64,000 nt of DNA from the human T2T-CHM13v2.0 reference genome, Homo sapiens. The notes under the pieces were generated by a model. The model was given only the letters and a program-made list of their open reading frames with translations, had not been told where the DNA came from and did no database searches. Numbering within the stretch: position 1 is the stretch's first letter; each line of letters opens with the position of its first letter. Location: the NCBI RefSeq assembly GCF_009914755.1, contig NC_060936.1; one strand, given 5' to 3'. This document shows positions 856 through 57,706 of the stretch, piece by piece. A program made the position numbers and the translations under genes.

Positions 856-957
856 GTGAACGAGAACGCCAAGAAGGACCTGAAGGAAGGCCTGCTGCTG
901 TACCACACCGAGAACAACGTGGGGCTGAAGAACGCCTGGAACATCATCCAGGCTGAG
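856..957 (+). CDS. TSPAN9: Tetraspanin-9 internal coding exon (start of large extracellular loop EC2), VNENAKKDLKEGLLLYHTENNVGLKNAWNIIQAE
   Basis: CAG acceptor at 853-855, GT donor at 958-959, 102 nt phase 0/0; peptide recognised as TSPAN9 EC2. Upstream exons lie outside the window. Confidence 0.96.
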
Positions 958-1671
958 GTGCGGGCTGGGCCGCCCTGGTGGGGCCAGGCAGGGAGGAGGG
1001 GTGGCGGCCGGTACTTCTAGCTGCCTTCCCCGGTGACCTGGCCGGGCACCTGTGCTTTCTGGATTTTAGCCGGGAGTGGAGTGGTACCCACGGGGGCATT
1101 TGCCTGAACTGCTGAGTCAGATGTGATACAGCAAGGTACAGCCAGGGAGGGATGAGGATACAGGAGGGGCAGGCCTGAGAGAGCTGTGGCTGAGCTTTGG
1201 GATGAATGACTGAATTTATTTTAGCAACAGATTTGCCTCCATGATGGGGCTTGGCTTAGGTGAGGAGGCCCTGGCTCTAGGAGGAGAACAAGTCCATAGT
1301 CCCAGATGCTCCCATTTTAAGCCCTGGGGAGGGGCCGGCAGGGGGTTGGGTGGCAGTCAGCTTGGGACGGTTTACAGAAAGAGCAGAGGTGCTGGTGGGC
1401 AAGCACAGGGCTGAGCCAAGGGGCCCAGCCCGAGGGGTGGGCTGCATTGCCCTCTCCCGCTCTGGTCTCCAGGAAGGAGTGCTCACTCACTTCTCCAGTG
1501 GGCCCGGCTGAAGCCCAAAGAAGGGACAAGAAGCAAGCCCTTTGTCTCCTCCCTTAACTGCAGGGTGGCCACTTTTGCGGGGACTGGGGTTGGCCTGGGC
1601 AGGGGAAGGCCCTGGGGAGGAAGGGGCGGGCCATGGCATGTCTGACTGCCCCTTCCATTCCTGCTGGCCAG

Positions 1672-1803
1672 ATGCGATGCTGTGGTGTCACTGACTACAC
1701 AGACTGGTACCCAGTGCTGGGGGAGAACACGGTTCCCGACCGCTGCTGCATGGAGAACTCCCAGGGCTGCGGGCGCAACGCCACCACGCCTTTGTGGAGA
1801 ACG
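1672..1803 (+). CDS. TSPAN9: Tetraspanin-9 exon with CCG and PxxCC motifs, MRCCGVTDYTDWYPVLGENTVPDRCCMENSQGCGRNATTPLWRT
   Basis: CAG at 1669-1671, GTGAG donor at 1804, 132 nt phase 0/0; tetraspanin CCG and PDRCC signatures, N-glycosylation sequon NAT. Confidence 0.97.
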
Positions 1804-2207
1804 GTGAGGCTGGGGATGGACCGCTTGGGTCCAAGAGCCCGTGTGTGGATGCCCCGGCACGGGGAGCCCTATAGGGGAGGCTGGGCCCGGGACACTAAGA
1901 GGTTGGCTGAATGTGGCGGTGGGGGGCTCACAAAAATAAAGCCAAAAGACAGGTGGAAAATGGGGGGTGGGGCTGGACCCACAGTTGGGAGAGTCAGAGG
2001 GCGAGGGGTTGAATGGGGTCTGAGGCTCTGCAGCTGGCCTTGCGGGTGGGGCGGAGGCTGCGCCAAGGGATGGGGACAGGGCTGAGGCCAGGGAGGGCTG
2101 GGAGGTAAGAGTGAGGACGAGGTGGAAGGAGAGAGTGAGCTGGGGGCTGGGCTGCAGGGAGCGCATGCTTGGGCTGGGACCCTAACCTCGTGGGCCTCGC
2201 TCCCCAG

Positions 2208-2291
2208 GGCTGCTATGAAAAGGTGAAGATGTGGTTCGATGACAATAAGCACGTGCTGGGCACGGTGGGGATGTGCATCCTCATCATGCAG
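2208..2291 (+). CDS. TSPAN9: Tetraspanin-9 exon (GC motif and start of TM4), GCYEKVKMWFDDNKHVLGTVGMCILIMQ
   Basis: CCCCAG acceptor ending at 2207, GTAAG donor at 2292, 84 nt phase 0/0. Confidence 0.97.
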
Positions 2292-2866
2292 GTAAGAGGG
2301 GCGTCCCCAGCAGCCTCACCCACCCTGCTGGCCTCAGCCGCAGAGGGAAGGAAGCACAGAGAAGTGAAAGCAGTGTTGGTACACGGCGGAGGGTCTGGAA
2401 TTCATCACAGCTATTCAAGCTTAGCAGCTGTGCCTGCCACCGTTTCCGCAGAGCTCTGATATGAGAGCACGTGTCTACTCAGCACTGAGAGTGGTGCTCA
2501 GGGCTGCCTGTGGCCAGGCCCAGGCTGGGATATTGAAGCTGGAGTCAACCCCCGTGGGTTCCCCCAGTTCTGCCCAAACCTTGAGCTCAGAGAGCCATGC
2601 AAGACACACACGGTGTCCCCCGGTCACCATCTTTACAGCCTGTGCACATGGCACACTCTCTGTGGTGACCGTGAGACCACACCGGGCTTCCTTCTGCCTC
2701 CTGCACTCCTCTGGGTCCCCGGCTCCTTTGAGGATTCAGGAGGGAAGGGGCACAAACGAGTAGTGACGTGGTCCTGAGCACACATCACTGGAAAGACAGC
2801 CCTGCTGCTGCCAAGACATCGCACCATGTGTTCCACAAGCAGACAAGAGAGGCTTGACAGGAGTCC

Positions 2867-3139
2867 TTTATTTTTCTTTTTTTAAGAGACAGGGTCTCAC
2901 TTTGTTGCTCAGGCTGGAGTGCGGTGGCGCCGTCATAGCTCGCTGCAGCCACAAACTCCTGGGCTCAAGCCATCGTCCCACTTCAGCCTCTCAAGTAGCT
3001 GGGACTACAGGCATATACACCACCATACCTGAATGATTTACAACTTTTTTCCAAAAACAGATGGAGTCTCCCTCTATTGCCCAGGCCGATCTCAAGCCAT
3101 CCTCCCACCTTGGCCTCCTAAAGTGCCACCGTGCCCGGC
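2867..3139 (-). mobile_element. AluJ-type SINE with internal deletions, in the last TSPAN9 intron
   Basis: T-tract then GAGACAGGGTCTCAC...CTCCTGGGCTCAAGC...GCCACCGTGCCCGGC. Confidence 0.9.
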
Positions 3140-55175: not shown

Positions 55176-55262
55176 CCCCAGACTCACCCTGACCTTGGGG
55201 ACACCCCAGATCACCCTGACCTTGGGGACACCCTAGACTCACCCTGACCTGTGGGGACGCCC
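55176..55262. repeat. Minisatellite, 3 x 27-29 bp
   Basis: CCCCAGACTCACCCTGACCTTGGGGACA repeated three times with small changes. Confidence 0.88.
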
Positions 55263-55289
55263 ATGTCTCCTTCTTGCCTCTCGTTTCCT

Positions 55290-55690
55290 CTTGATCTCCA
55301 TGCTCTCCCTAAGGGATCTCCTGTATTTCTGTGGCTGCAGCTGCCATTGGGGTGGGGATGATCCCCAAGTCTGGGGTGCCAGCCTAACTTTCTCCTGAGA
55401 TCCAGACCTGTAAGCTAACTGCCTACAGGGCATCTCTGCTCAGAGGTCTCCTGGCACCTCGAAAAGTCACCATGTCTACATCTGACCTCACCATCTGACC
55501 CCAAACTTCTCTCTCCAGTCTCTGGTTTCAATGAAGAGCTCTACCATCCATCAGGAGATTCATATCCCAGGCACCTCTTCCAGCCAAAGGAATCTCTTCT
55601 TGTCAATTTCACCTCCTAAGTCCCTTGACTCCAAGTATTTCTGTCCCCGCTGTCATCCCCACAGTGCAGGTCATGACCATCTCTCACTTT
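55290..55690 (+). mobile_element. L2 fragment
   Basis: TCCAGACCTGTA...AACTGCCTAC...GCACCTCGAA...CCATGTCT typical of L2; approximate. Confidence 0.6.
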
Positions 55691-55745
55691 GATCGGTGCG
55701 AAGTCTAGAGGAAGTGTCAACAGTGGCCATTCCTGGGATGGCCAG

Positions 55746-56203
55746 TGGTATGGGTTGGACTGTGTCCCCCCAAATATATGTTGAAATCCTAACCACCGGA
55801 ACTGTGAACATGGCCTTATTTGGAAATAAGATCTTTGCAGATGTAGTCAAGTTACAATGAGGTCAGAAGGGTGGGCCCTAATCCAACATGACTGGCGTCC
55901 TTGGAAGAGGAAGACGTCACGCGAAGACAGAGACACACAGGAGAGCAGCATGTGACAGCAGAGGCCTTAGAGATTGGAGGGAGGCAGCTGCAAGTCAAGG
56001 AGTGCTGAGAATTGCCAGCCACTCTCAGAAGCTGGAAGAGGTGATAAAGGGTCCCTCCCCTAGAAGCTCCAGAGGAAGCACAGCCCTGCTGATGCCCTGA
56101 TTTTGGACTTGTAGCCTCCAGAACTGTGAGAGAGTGAATTTCTGTTGCTTAAAGCTATCCAGTCTATGGCACTTTGCTACAGCAGCCCTGGGAAGCTAAC
56201 ATA
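55746..56203 (+). mobile_element. MLT1B/C-like solo LTR
   Basis: CCTTATTTGGAAATAAGATCTTTGCAGATGTA...GCCTCCAGAACTGTGAGAGA...ACAGCAGCCCTGGGAAGCTAA. Confidence 0.85.
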
Positions 56204-57611
56204 GGGAGATAAGGACAATTTTCATTTTCTTAGCATACTTTTCAGTATTTTAGAGGTGATCTGTAGTGGATACACAAGACTTTTATGATTAGGAAAAACA
56301 TAGTCATTCTTAAAAAGAAGTGCTCATCAGTAGGAATCCTAAGCGTCCTATTGGATTTGTCCCTGAGAATTGAAGCCATCTATGCCACACAGTTTACTGT
56401 CCTCATCAACACAGCTTTTTTATTCCACAGGAGACTCTTGCCCAGGAAGATAAAAGCTGAACATAATTTTATTGTTCATTTCGGGGACTTTGCAAATAAC
56501 ATTTACACAAACAGCAGATTGTACAACTTTTTAATAGCATCTAATGACTGTCTTTTCACCAAGACTCTTCAAAAACTCTTGCCTTGCCATGTCTTCCCAT
56601 CCCAAACTCCTAGGTCATGGCTCTTCCCAATCTTAATCAAGTCCCTGCAGGAAAGATGCTCAAAACTCAGACATATCCCATTTGCATTTGGTTTTCTGAG
56701 ATGATTCTAAGACTCTGTAAAGGGTCTTCTCCCTTACCATGGTAGCAGGAAACCTGGCTGCCTTATCCGAGGGTTGATTTGGTGGTATTTTCAGGCATTT
56801 GACATCTGATATTCAAAATATTGCATTTATGGAATGCAACCCCAATCATCCCTGAATTGTAGCCAGGGAAACAGGCTCCTCGAACTTCAGTTGCTCAAGG
56901 CCACACCATTAGTAGCTGGCAGAGCCTAGGTCCAGCTGCCTGCAAAGCCTGCACTCTTACCCTTCTCCTACTTTCCCAAATTTAGTGAGACTGTAATACA
57001 AAATACTTATATTCTGGTGTCTGGCTATTTTTGGGTGGTATTCGGCTCCCAATTGTCCAGATAATGGCCCCAAGCGGACAGGCTATGGTCCTCAGGAAGA
57101 CATCACCCAGGCAGGTTTCCTGCGGGGAGTCACCATAGAGACCATTTCCATCACAGGCAGCAGCAGCCTGAGCTTCCGGGACTTCTGTTTCCCTGCCCTG
57201 GGCCTGGAGAATGTTAACCATGAAAGGCAAATGGGCTTCGGTTGGAAACAAGCCATTATTAGCCACTATTTCAGGCAGTCACATTTCCCACAAGGCACTT
57301 GTGCAACAAGTTAGCAGGGAAGAAAGAAGCCGAGCCTTTGTACGGCGGGGCCAGAACACAAAGCTCATTGTGATGTTTGTGCTTCTATTCAGACGCCACG
57401 TGGTACGGACTCCACGCCAACCTGCAGACTGGATTCTTTTCTTCCCCCTCAGTAACAAACATACACATTTGCTTTAAAGTAGGCAGAATTTGCCCATGGG
57501 TGGTCTTTGATTTGGAAGAAATCAACTTCAAAGTGGTGACTCACAAAAAACAAAGGTGGCTTGACTCATTCAGTGCTCGGGAAAGGGGATGTGTGTGCAG
57601 AATTCACTCAT

Positions 57612-57706
57612 CCAGAAGCAGAAGTTGAAGACAAGGAGTAAATACTTCAGGTAGACAATCAGCCAGTCATCCTGCTTGGTCTTGTAATGGGCCATGGCTG
57701 CTGAGT
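57612..57706 (-). pseudogene. TSPAN11-like CE1: MAHYKTKQDDWLIVYLKYLLLVFNFCFW (ATG at 57695)
   Basis: Acceptor TTCTCTAG, Kozak GCCATGG, 28 open codons, 24/28 identical to recalled TSPAN11 N-terminus; donor reads ATGAGT instead of GTGAGT. Confidence 0.93.

What the first reader, a model, noticed from the sequence alone, without database searches (positions are those of the whole stretch)
856..57706. Likely gene relocation: this may be the dead ancestral TSPAN11 locus
Seen: the pseudogene is tail-to-tail with TSPAN9. Recalled: mouse Tspan11 sits next to Tspan9, functional human TSPAN11 lies far away on 12p11, and the paralogs TSPAN4 and CD151 are neighbours on 11p15. Inference: the parent copy died after a primate duplication and the daughter copy took over. 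That reverses the usual outcome and would change the regulatory neighbourhood of TSPAN11 between mouse and human.
Basis: partly seen in the sequence, partly recalled or inferred. Interest (0 to 1): 0.8.

Follow-up and report, generated by a model that had tools for sequence, protein, structure and literature searches.

The report
Dead ancestral TSPAN11 beside TSPAN9
The broken TSPAN11 copy next to TSPAN9 on human 12p13 is the original gene, which died after a block of about 150 kb was copied to 12p11 early in primate evolution and the copy took over; it is a well-documented example of a known kind of gene relocation.

Summary
All 7 TSPAN11 coding exons lie on the minus strand at window 57695-18684, tail-to-tail with TSPAN9. 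RefSeq labels only exons 1-2 as the pseudogene.

They sit in one inverted, colinear duplication of at least 152 kb (K2P 0.21). It runs from 178 bp upstream of TSPAN9's last exon into the PRMT8 transcription unit. Its partner at chr12:30.73-30.88 Mb holds the intact 253-codon TSPAN11.

12p13 is the parent, on three grounds: the 12p11 copy carries only an orphan, broken TSPAN9 last exon; cattle have PRMT8-TSPAN11-TSPAN9; alligator has tspan11 beside prmt8.

The event is old: 0 of 47 Alus are shared. It lies on the primate lineage: the relic falls inside primates (support 91/95) and shares L35 and G88 with them. Its position within primates is unresolved.

The parent died almost at once: 46 versus 5 amino-acid changes, dN/dS 0.54, and 7 indels against 7.8 expected under neutrality.

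Relic exons 3-6, whose splice sites are intact, match exons of lncRNA LOC100128253 base for base. That lncRNA starts in a preserved CpG island colinear with one upstream of functional TSPAN11.

The relocation was mentioned once in print (PMC5608299). The mechanism has precedents in DPY19L2 and in neighbouring DDX11.

The parts
856..7033 (+). 3' end of TSPAN9 (last four coding exons 856-957, 1672-1803, 2208-2291, 3519-3590, plus the 3'UTR to 7033). This is the intact neighbouring gene.
   Evidence: Hub annotation. The last coding part translates to ILGMAFSMTLFQHIHRTGKKYDA*. Exon 1672-1803 matches itself at 100% and a chr11:917,115 paralogue at 50%.
3341..3341 (.). Near breakpoint of the ancient duplication, 178 bp upstream of TSPAN9's last exon. 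It pairs with chr12:30,880,543.
   Evidence: The local alignment begins at window 3341 / p11 160543. Upstream of it only Alu-to-Alu matches are found.
3341..64000 (.). The part of the duplicated block that lies in the window (parent copy). The block continues to at least window coordinate 161,837, inside the PRMT8 transcription unit, and is inverted relative to chr12:30,728,783-30,880,543.
   Evidence: A colinear minus-strand chain; the full chain has 94 blocks. Within 3341-161837 there are 109,468 ungapped columns, p = 0.180 and K2P = 0.209. 48,766 of 60,660 window positions (80%) align to 12p11.
18684..18740 (-). Relic exon 7. It has a 9-bp deletion across the acceptor and first codons, a 1-bp deletion, and its stop codon TAA changed to TCA.
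23814..23880 (-). Relic exon 6. It has a 20-bp deletion (frameshift) but both splice sites are intact. It matches an exon of LOC100128253 base for base.
   Evidence: hub annotation.
24259..24414 (-). Relic exon 5. It has three separate 1-bp deletions but both splice sites are intact. It matches an exon of LOC100128253 base for base.
   Evidence: hub annotation.
27241..27345 (-). Relic exon 4. It has no indel or stop and both splice sites are intact, with 16 of 105 bases changed. It matches an exon of LOC100128253 base for base.
   Evidence: hub annotation.
28225..28295 (-). Relic exon 3. It has a 4-bp deletion (frameshift) but both splice sites are intact. It matches an exon of LOC100128253 base for base.
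   Evidence: hub annotation.
43812..44003 (-). Relic exon 2. It has two in-frame stops (TGA at codon 66, TAG at codon 84). The acceptor is intact and the donor GT is changed to CT.
57612..57695 (-). Relic exon 1. The ATG is kept, with 10 of 84 bases changed. The donor GT is changed to AT.

Best explanation
A block of at least 152 kb was copied from 12p13.33 into 12p11.21, 27.5 Mb away on the same chromosome arm and in inverted orientation. The block runs from the last intron of TSPAN9, through the whole TSPAN11 gene with its CpG-island promoter, to at least 60 kb inside the PRMT8 transcription unit. The copying happened on the primate lineage, at or before the oldest Alu insertions that survive in this region. 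The copy left at the original site lost constraint at once or almost at once and decayed into the relic seen in this window. The transposed copy stayed under purifying selection and is today's TSPAN11. What is shown: the block and its near breakpoint, the direction of copying, the list of lesions, and neutral evolution of the relic. What is inferred: the timing within primates, the copy-and-paste mechanism, and continued activity of the relic's promoter. The relic is still transcribed as the 'lncRNA' LOC100128253. That RNA uses exactly the four ancestral exons whose splice sites survive (E3-E6). It skips E1 and E2, which have lost their donors, and E7, which has a damaged acceptor.
For: Block: blastn gives one inverted colinear chain from window 3341 to 161,837, paired with chr12:30,880,543 down to 30,728,783. 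Divergence is uniform, with K2P 0.19-0.23 in 7 of 7 bins, as expected for a single event.

Direction: the 12p11 copy begins 178 bp before TSPAN9's last exon and holds only that exon, with TAC changed to TAG. Cattle are listed as PRMT8, TSPAN11, TSPAN9, TEAD4. Alligator tspan11 lies beside prmt8.

Function of the daughter: an intact 253-codon ORF with GT-AG at all introns, and only 5 amino-acid changes since the split.

Death of the parent: 2 in-frame stops, 6 frameshifting deletions, a 9-bp deletion at the exon 7 acceptor, 2 lost donors and a lost stop codon. There are 46 amino-acid changes on the relic branch against 5 on the functional branch, with 3 ambiguous. dS is 0.213, close to the non-coding K2P of 0.209, and dN/dS is 0.54. 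There are 7 exonic indel events against 7.8 expected, and about 50 non-synonymous changes against about 53 expected, if the relic was neutral the whole time.

Timing: 0 of 47 Alus are shared (21 at 12p13, 26 at 12p11). The single colinear pair is two insertions 23 bp apart. The relic plus primates form a clade with support 91/95. L35 and G88 are shared with all 6 primate sequences and neither colugo, and Q141 with all 5 anthropoid sequences (human included) but not Microcebus.

Transcription: E3-E6 equal annotated LOC100128253 exons base for base. Its annotated start at window 86,638 lies in a CpG island (GC 0.75, o/e 0.94) colinear with an island at chr12:30,800,959-30,801,466.
Against: No primate or near-primate genome could be examined, so the node of the duplication is not fixed. 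R138 in the relic is the Glires/colugo state where all 6 primate sequences (human included) have G. That would place the split before the lemur divergence, unless it is a CpG-type reversal. The tree pairs the relic with marmoset (86/82) rather than outside the anthropoids. Trees with living primates, or living anthropoids, held together without the relic are not rejected (p-AU 0.31 and 0.39). The AU test of relic + catarrhines did not finish. The oldest private Alus look somewhat more diverged (0.12-0.17) than each block copy has diverged since the split (0.08-0.09), so the clock scales do not agree exactly. The far breakpoint was not reached: on 12p11 it lies between 30.703 and 30.729 Mb. The next 12p11 piece matches a different 12p13.33 site, so the event may have been composite. 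That the colinear 12p11 CpG island is TSPAN11's promoter is inferred, since no annotation of that locus was available to me. Pfam does not recognise the relic's short unbroken pieces (0 of 3).
Confidence: 0.85

Rival explanations
1. Differential retention within primates. The duplication predates the platyrrhine-catarrhine split, and both copies stayed functional for a long time. New World monkeys still use the 12p13 parent while catarrhines use the 12p11 daughter. On this reading, marmoset 'TSPAN11' is the orthologue of the human relic.
For: The ML tree pairs the relic with marmoset (86/82). The relic shares K132, R166 and L191, plus S80 and T131, with marmoset.
Against: The same states recur elsewhere: K132 and L191 in jerboa, R166 in rabbit, L191 in opossum and echidna. 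S80 is also in Microcebus and T131 is the outgroup majority state. The relic shares I39 with catarrhines but not with marmoset. Holding the anthropoid genes together without the relic costs only 1.1 lnL (p-AU 0.39). If the relic had been neutral for at most 54% of the post-duplication time, about 31-41 non-synonymous changes are expected against about 50 observed (P = 0.001-0.11), and 4.2 indels against 7 observed (P = 0.14). The 54% figure rests on primate branch lengths that I recalled.
Confidence: 0.08
2. The duplication is older than primates (Euarchontoglires or earlier), and the 12p11 copy was later lost in rodents, cattle and other lineages.
For: 0 of 47 Alus are shared. The relic keeps R138 as in Glires and colugos. 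The oldest private Alus look at least as diverged as the block.
Against: The relic groups inside primates (91/95) and shares L35 and G88 with all primates sampled but not with colugos. The per-lineage divergence of about 0.10 is below my recalled human-to-Euarchontoglires-root distance of about 0.14. This reading needs several independent losses of the daughter copy.
Confidence: 0.06
3. 12p11 is the ancestral site, and the 12p13 copy is a later, dead duplicate that happened to land beside TSPAN9.
For: Only that the 12p11 copy is the functional one, which is the usual expectation for a parent copy.
Against: This would require an inserted block to supply the real last exon and 3'UTR of TSPAN9 and part of the PRMT8 transcription unit, while 12p11 keeps only a broken orphan exon. 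Cattle and alligator have TSPAN11 between PRMT8 and TSPAN9. The paralogous pair on 11p15 is also adjacent.
Confidence: 0.01

Closest known systems
DPY19L2 / DPY19L2P1 relocation in human (Carson, Cheung & Scherer 2006, PMC1475853; abstract read)
   Same: A DNA-level duplication, after which the ancestral copy at the mouse-syntenic site became a transcribed pseudogene while the descendant copy at a new locus stayed functional. The gene was therefore relocated.
   Different: DPY19L2 moved within recent low-copy repeats that belong to a family of eight related repeats. The TSPAN11 block is a single old pair with about 18% substitution divergence, and no third copy was found for exons 1-2.
DDX11 (12p11) / LOC642846 and DDX12P (12p13) (PMC9724437; passages read)
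   Same: DDX11 is the immediate neighbour of TSPAN11 at 12p11.21. It is reported as a derived copy whose 12p13 ancestor accumulated splice-site and stop mutations. It has the same acceptor region and the same outcome.
   Different: The event is reported as recent (common ancestor of human, chimpanzee and gorilla) and its source is a different part of 12p13. The paper does not contain the term TSPAN11 (0 occurrences). The TSPAN11 event is far older (K2P 0.21).
Unprocessed (duplicated) pseudogenes in general
   Same: The relic keeps its introns, promoter island and exon order, and it decays by stops, frameshifts and splice-site loss.
   Different: In the usual case the new copy decays. Here the copy at the original site decayed. 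The relic is also longer than annotated (7 exons, not 2), and part of it is annotated as a lncRNA.
Note on tspan11 position in PMC5608299 (2017; passages read)
   Same: It states that tspan11 lies directly upstream of alligator prmt8 and 'is moved to further downstream of PRMT8 in human'.
   Different: It is a one-sentence remark in a paper about PRMT genes. In the three passages I read there is nothing on a TSPAN11 relic, a duplication block, the direction of copying or its date; the paper's single use of 'pseudogene' concerns chromosome 19.

Membership tests
Tetraspanin family (Pfam PF00335), TSPAN11 orthogroup, applied to the relic | Sequence homology to TSPAN11 across the whole coding region, closer to TSPAN11 than to other tetraspanins | tested here: met
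   tblastn with P0002 finds all 7 exons in order on one strand. Exonic identity to human TSPAN11 is 639 of 732. The CD151-like site matches exon 2 at only 73%, against 82% for 12p11.
Tetraspanin family (Pfam PF00335), TSPAN11 orthogroup, applied to the relic | A Pfam Tetraspanin profile match | tested here: inconclusive
   0 of 3 unbroken relic pieces (28, 37 and 35 aa) match at E <= 1. Even the functional exon 2 alone scores only 27.1 bits, below the 32.1-bit cut-off. Full-length P0002 scores 181.9 bits. The relic pieces are too short for this test.
Unprocessed pseudogene | Introns and exon order of the source gene are retained, and there is no poly-A or retrocopy structure | tested here: met
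   The seven exons are spread over 39 kb. Flanking intron identity is 278 of 337, and the introns are colinear with the functional gene.
Unprocessed pseudogene | Disabling lesions and loss of constraint | tested here: met
   2 stops, 6 frameshifting deletions, 2 lost donors, a damaged acceptor and a lost stop codon. 46 versus 5 amino-acid changes. Indel and non-synonymous counts fit neutrality.
Gene relocation by duplication with loss of the parental copy (DPY19L2 type) | The dead copy lies at the ancestral, outgroup-syntenic position | tested here: met
   Cattle gene order is PRMT8, TSPAN11, TSPAN9 (PMC9247466 Table 3). Alligator tspan11 lies beside prmt8 (PMC5608299). Mouse was not tested (recalled only).
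Gene relocation by duplication with loss of the parental copy (DPY19L2 type) | The functional copy lies in a derived segment whose edges cut neighbouring genes of the source locus | tested here: met
   The 12p11 block starts 178 bp before TSPAN9's last exon and holds only that exon, which is broken. The other end lies inside the PRMT8 transcription unit, but that breakpoint was not reached.
Gene relocation by duplication with loss of the parental copy (DPY19L2 type) | Outgroups lack the gene at the new position | not testable with these tools
   No non-human eukaryotic genome could be searched. This feature is only implied by single TSPAN11 entries in the cattle gene lists.
Segmental duplication as catalogued (my recollection of the usual criteria: at least 90% identity over at least 1 kb) | At least 90% identity | tested here: not met
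   Identity is 82% counting substitutions only and 71-87% per block counting gaps. It works like a segmental duplication but is too old to meet the catalogue criterion.

The most novel reading that the evidence does not exclude
Hidden paralogy inside primates. After the duplication both copies persisted, and lineages sorted them differently, so that New World monkeys still express the 12p13 parent while catarrhines express the 12p11 daughter. What is called TSPAN11 in marmoset and in human would then be paralogues tens of millions of years apart (a date by my recalled clock). The human relic, with its promoter island still unmethylated and four ancestral exons still spliced into LOC100128253, would be the remnant of a gene that is alive in another primate. 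This reading is hinted at by the relic-marmoset pairing (86/82) and by three shared derived residues. It is disfavoured, but not excluded, by the neutral-clock counts.
Probability: 0.08. Interest if true: 0.7.

Novelty: new member of a known kind. Interest (0 to 1): 0.45.

Why it matters
It settles which human TSPAN11 locus is ancestral, so cattle TSPAN11 (and mouse Tspan11, if my recollection of its position is right) and human TSPAN11 are orthologous genes at non-orthologous positions. Synteny-based orthology calls, enhancer or TAD transfer between species, and interpretation of 12p11.21 deletions and 12p13.33 association signals should take that into account.

It corrects the annotation. 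LOC100418939 covers 2 of 7 relic exons. The 'lncRNA' LOC100128253 is largely the transcribed remainder of the dead gene, and LINC02827 runs antisense across it.

It shows a duplication of about 150 kb too diverged (82% identity) for the usual segmental-duplication criterion as I recall it. It also shows that 12p11.21 has received 12p13 material at least twice, with the daughter copy winning both times (TSPAN11 and DDX11).

The relic's CpG island, still at o/e 0.94 despite the block's K2P of 0.21, offers a natural test of how long a promoter can outlive its gene.

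Tried and rejected
1. A shared Alu as a date marker. One colinear Alu pair (window 10878-11173 opposite p11 153557-153828) first looked shared. The alignment shows two insertion sites 23 bp apart, so I rejected it.

2. A PRMT8 coding fragment at 12p11. My recalled N-terminal motif was not found in window coordinates 100,001-164,000. I therefore claim only that the block enters the annotated PRMT8 transcription unit.

3. A DDX11 relic at chr12:2.69-2.75 Mb. A Pfam DEAD_2 search of the genome found 14 matches, none of them there. A decayed relic or other DDX11 exons could have been missed.

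4. The far breakpoint. A 3-kb probe at chr12:30.700 Mb matched another 12p13.33 site. The first 6 kb of chr12:30.720 Mb gave only matches to dispersed repeats.

5. An inversion with staggered breaks as the origin of the inverted pair. I rejected this by reasoning: both flanks of the 12p13 copy are in ancestral context (TSPAN9 upstream exons on one side, the rest of PRMT8 on the other, in the same order as in cattle).

7. The Tasmanian devil paper names TSPAN9, TSPAN11 and TEAD4 as candidates, but the passages I read give no positions, so I did not use it as synteny evidence.

8. Pfam on relic pieces gave no hits.

9. The AU test of 'relic + catarrhines' did not finish in the time available.

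Full report
WHAT IS THERE

The window is T2T-CHM13 chr12:3,286,001-3,350,000. On the minus strand an ATG at 57695-57693 opens a frame reading MAHYKTKQDDWLIVYLKYLLLVFNFCFW. A second frame near 44.0 kb reads ...GAAVLAMGIWTLVERSSYLSILASSTFTASACILI.

The window's own assembly can be searched. The exon 1 stretch has 2 matches genome-wide: itself, and chr12:30,828,518-30,828,819 at 85%. The exon 2 stretch has 3 matches: itself, chr12:30,838,326-30,838,621 at 82%, and a CD151-like site at chr11:887,639 at 73%.

With gorilla TSPAN11 (P0002) tblastn finds all seven coding exons in order in both places.

At 12p11 the seven exons join into an intact 762-nt ORF with GT-AG introns.

At 12p13 the exact exons are E1 57612-57695, E2 43812-44003, E3 28225-28295, E4 27241-27345, E5 24259-24414, E6 23814-23880 and E7 18684-18740. 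The RefSeq pseudogene LOC100418939 (43815-57695) therefore covers only E1 and E2.

THE RELIC LIES IN A LARGE OLD DUPLICATION

blastn of the window, extended with 100 kb fetched towards PRMT8, against chr12:30.72-30.90 Mb gives one inverted, colinear chain.
- It runs from window 3341 (paired with chr12:30,880,543) to at least window coordinate 161,837 (paired with chr12:30,728,783). That is about 158 kb at 12p13 and 152 kb at 12p11.
- Over 109,468 ungapped columns, p = 0.180 and K2P = 0.209 (0.189 without CpG sites).
- K2P is 0.19-0.23 in 7 of 7 bins, as expected for a single event.
- 80% of window positions 3341-64000 align to 12p11.

The far breakpoint was not reached. A probe at chr12:30,700,001-30,703,000 instead matches chr12:2.691-2.694 and 2.747 Mb at 73-77%. 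The stretch between gave only matches to dispersed repeats. So 12p11.21 holds at least two old pieces derived from 12p13.33.

DIRECTION OF COPYING

The near breakpoint lies 178 bp upstream of TSPAN9's last exon. The 12p11 copy carries that exon alone. Its acceptor is intact but its 24-codon frame is broken, with TAC changed to TAG. At 12p13 the same exon is the real end of a complete TSPAN9. At the other end the block runs at least 60 kb into the annotated PRMT8 transcription unit. My recalled PRMT8 N-terminal motif is absent from the stretch I hold, so I claim no PRMT8 coding fragment at 12p11.

A segment that cuts through neighbouring genes of one locus, and carries only their fragments at the other, is the derived copy.

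Outgroup evidence from papers agrees:
- Cattle BTA5 105.6-107.5 Mb is listed as PARP11, CRACR2A, PRMT8, TSPAN11, TSPAN9, TEAD4, RHNO1, FOXM1... (PMC9247466, Table 3 passage).
- Alligator tspan11 is 'directly upstream' of prmt8 and 'is moved to further downstream of PRMT8 in human' (PMC5608299, passages).
- The paralogous pair on 11p15 is also adjacent: the TSPAN9-like hit at chr11:917,115 is about 30 kb from the CD151-like hit.

HOW AND WHEN THE PARENT DIED

Lesions in the relic:
- E1: donor GT changed to AT.
- E2: two in-frame stops (TGA, TAG) and donor GT changed to CT.
- E3: 4-bp deletion.
- E5: three 1-bp deletions.
- E6: 20-bp deletion.
- E7: a 9-bp deletion over the acceptor, a 1-bp deletion, and stop codon TAA changed to TCA.

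Exonic mismatch is 93 of 732. Over 236 codons dS = 0.213, equal to the non-coding K2P, dN = 0.114 and dN/dS = 0.54. That is the value expected when one lineage is neutral and the other strongly constrained.

Polarised with 21 orthologues, 46 amino-acid changes fall on the relic branch, 5 on the functional branch, and 3 are ambiguous.

Two neutral clocks use the block itself as the yardstick:
- Indel events in the 762 coding bases: 7 observed against 7.8 expected if neutral throughout.
- Non-synonymous changes: about 50 observed against about 53 expected.

So constraint was lost at, or very soon after, the duplication.

TIMING

None of 47 Alus inside the block (21 at 12p13, 26 at 12p11) is shared. 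The single colinear pair is two insertions 23 bp apart. The eight most diverged Alus show 0.12-0.17 non-CpG divergence from their own group consensus, with one at 0.23. That is at least as much as each block copy has diverged since the split (0.08-0.09). Six of the eight are private insertions inside the block and two lie just outside it. So the duplication is at least as old as the oldest Alus retained here.

The relic nonetheless belongs to the primate lineage.
- It shares 7-12 non-majority residues with each primate and 0-6 with each non-primate.
- L35 and G88 are shared with all 6 primate sequences and neither colugo.
- Q141 is shared with all 5 anthropoid sequences (human included) and not with Microcebus.
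- The ML tree of 29 rows puts relic + primates together with support 91/95.

Inside primates the position is unresolved.
- The relic pairs with marmoset (86/82).
- Holding living primates, or living anthropoids, together without the relic is not rejected (p-AU 0.31 and 0.39).
- R138 in the relic, where all 6 primate sequences (human included) have G, pulls the other way, towards an earlier split.
- One further AU test, relic + catarrhines, did not finish.

By my recollection of published primate branch lengths (from no call here), about 0.10 substitutions per site per lineage falls on the anthropoid stem, near the tarsier split. I treat that only as a rough guide.

THE RELIC IS STILL TRANSCRIBED

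E3-E6, the four relic exons whose acceptor and donor both survive, coincide base for base with four annotated exons of the lncRNA LOC100128253 (hub annotation). E1 and E2 (donors destroyed) and E7 (acceptor damaged) are not among that transcript's annotated exons within the window.

The transcript's annotated start (window 86,638, outside the window) lies in a CpG island with GC 0.75 and CpG o/e 0.94. That island is colinear with an island at chr12:30,800,959-30,801,466 (GC 0.74, o/e 0.78), 27 kb upstream of the functional ATG exon.

I infer that this is the TSPAN11 promoter, and that the relic's island has stayed unmethylated in the germline. Neither point was tested.

COMPARISON WITH WHAT IS KNOWN

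The kind of event is established: the functional gene is relocated because the ancestral copy of a DNA-level duplicate is silenced.
- DPY19L2/DPY19L2P1 is the textbook case (PMC1475853, abstract).
- DDX11, the immediate neighbour of TSPAN11 at 12p11, is reported as a derived copy whose 12p13 ancestor LOC642846 is a pseudogene, dated to the human-chimpanzee-gorilla ancestor (PMC9724437, passages). That paper does not contain the term TSPAN11.

For TSPAN11 itself I found only the one-sentence remark in PMC5608299. Full-text searches for TSPAN11 gave these results:
- with 'pseudogene': 23 papers, 20 listed, none on this topic by title or abstract;
- with TSPAN9 and 'synteny': 1 paper;
- with 'segmental duplication': 0 papers;
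- with TSPAN9 and PRMT8: 3 papers;
- LOC100128253 alone: 1 paper, an expression study by its title and abstract.

Subscription journals and supplements are not covered, so an earlier description may exist.

VERDICT

1. What moved was a block of about 150 kb, not a gene, so the local regulatory neighbourhood went with it.
2. The event is very early on the primate lineage and its node is not fixed.
3. The outcome is not unique.

It is a new, well-documented member of a known kind. Its main practical value is for annotation and for cross-species comparison.

Noticed in passing
L034 = chr12:30,700,001-30,703,000 (outside the window): Just beyond the TSPAN9-PRMT8 block at 12p11.21 lies another old piece. 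It matches chr12:2,691,066-2,694,182 and 2,747,451-2,748,195 in 12p13.33 at 73-77%. Part of it also matches chr12:30,985,386 and 9,378,903. 12p11.21 therefore looks like a mosaic of old 12p13 segments.
   Followed up: partly
chr12:30.96 Mb, 9.28 Mb and 9.41 Mb (outside the window): DDX11, next to functional TSPAN11, is reported in print as a derived copy whose 12p13 parent is a pseudogene (PMC9724437). A cattle paper lists DDX11 in the same BTA5 1-Mb window as TSPAN9, TSPAN11 and PRMT8. A DEAD_2 search found no DDX11 relic at chr12:2.69-2.75 Mb. So two adjacent human genes at 12p11.21 are relocated daughters of different ages.
   Followed up: partly
window 18988-28295 (minus strand) and 20837-59155 (plus strand): Of the 11 annotated LOC100128253 exons in the window, 4 are TSPAN11 relic exons. 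The other 7 (18988-19125, 19792-20010, 20455-20915, 21056-21188, 21320-21466, 26427-26538, 27687-27953) lie in former introns or the 3' region and have no TSPAN11 coding counterpart. LINC02827 runs antisense across the whole relic.
   Followed up: no
window coordinates 86,000-87,000 (outside the window, in L024): There is a strong CpG island (65 CpGs in 500 bp, o/e 0.94) at the annotated start of LOC100128253. It is preserved although the block's overall divergence is K2P 0.21. LINC02417 starts about 2 kb away on the other strand.
   Followed up: partly
window coordinates 125,547-127,853 (outside the window) and chr12:30,822,043-30,824,314: A 2.3-kb element flanked by direct repeats of about 370 bp (LTR-like) is present once in each copy of the block, at non-colinear positions. 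Solitary copies of the 370-bp unit occur at window 50923-51280 and elsewhere. These look like independent insertions after the duplication. I only observed them; the family is not identified.
   Followed up: no
human TSPAN11 codons 14, 86 and 172 (chr12:30.83-30.86 Mb): Three of the five changes on the functional branch (I14, R86, L172) are absent from the Old World monkeys, marmoset and Microcebus. R86 and L172 are also absent from gorilla, which shares I14. Human also has W84 where gorilla has R. These are recent changes in an otherwise conserved protein.
   Followed up: no
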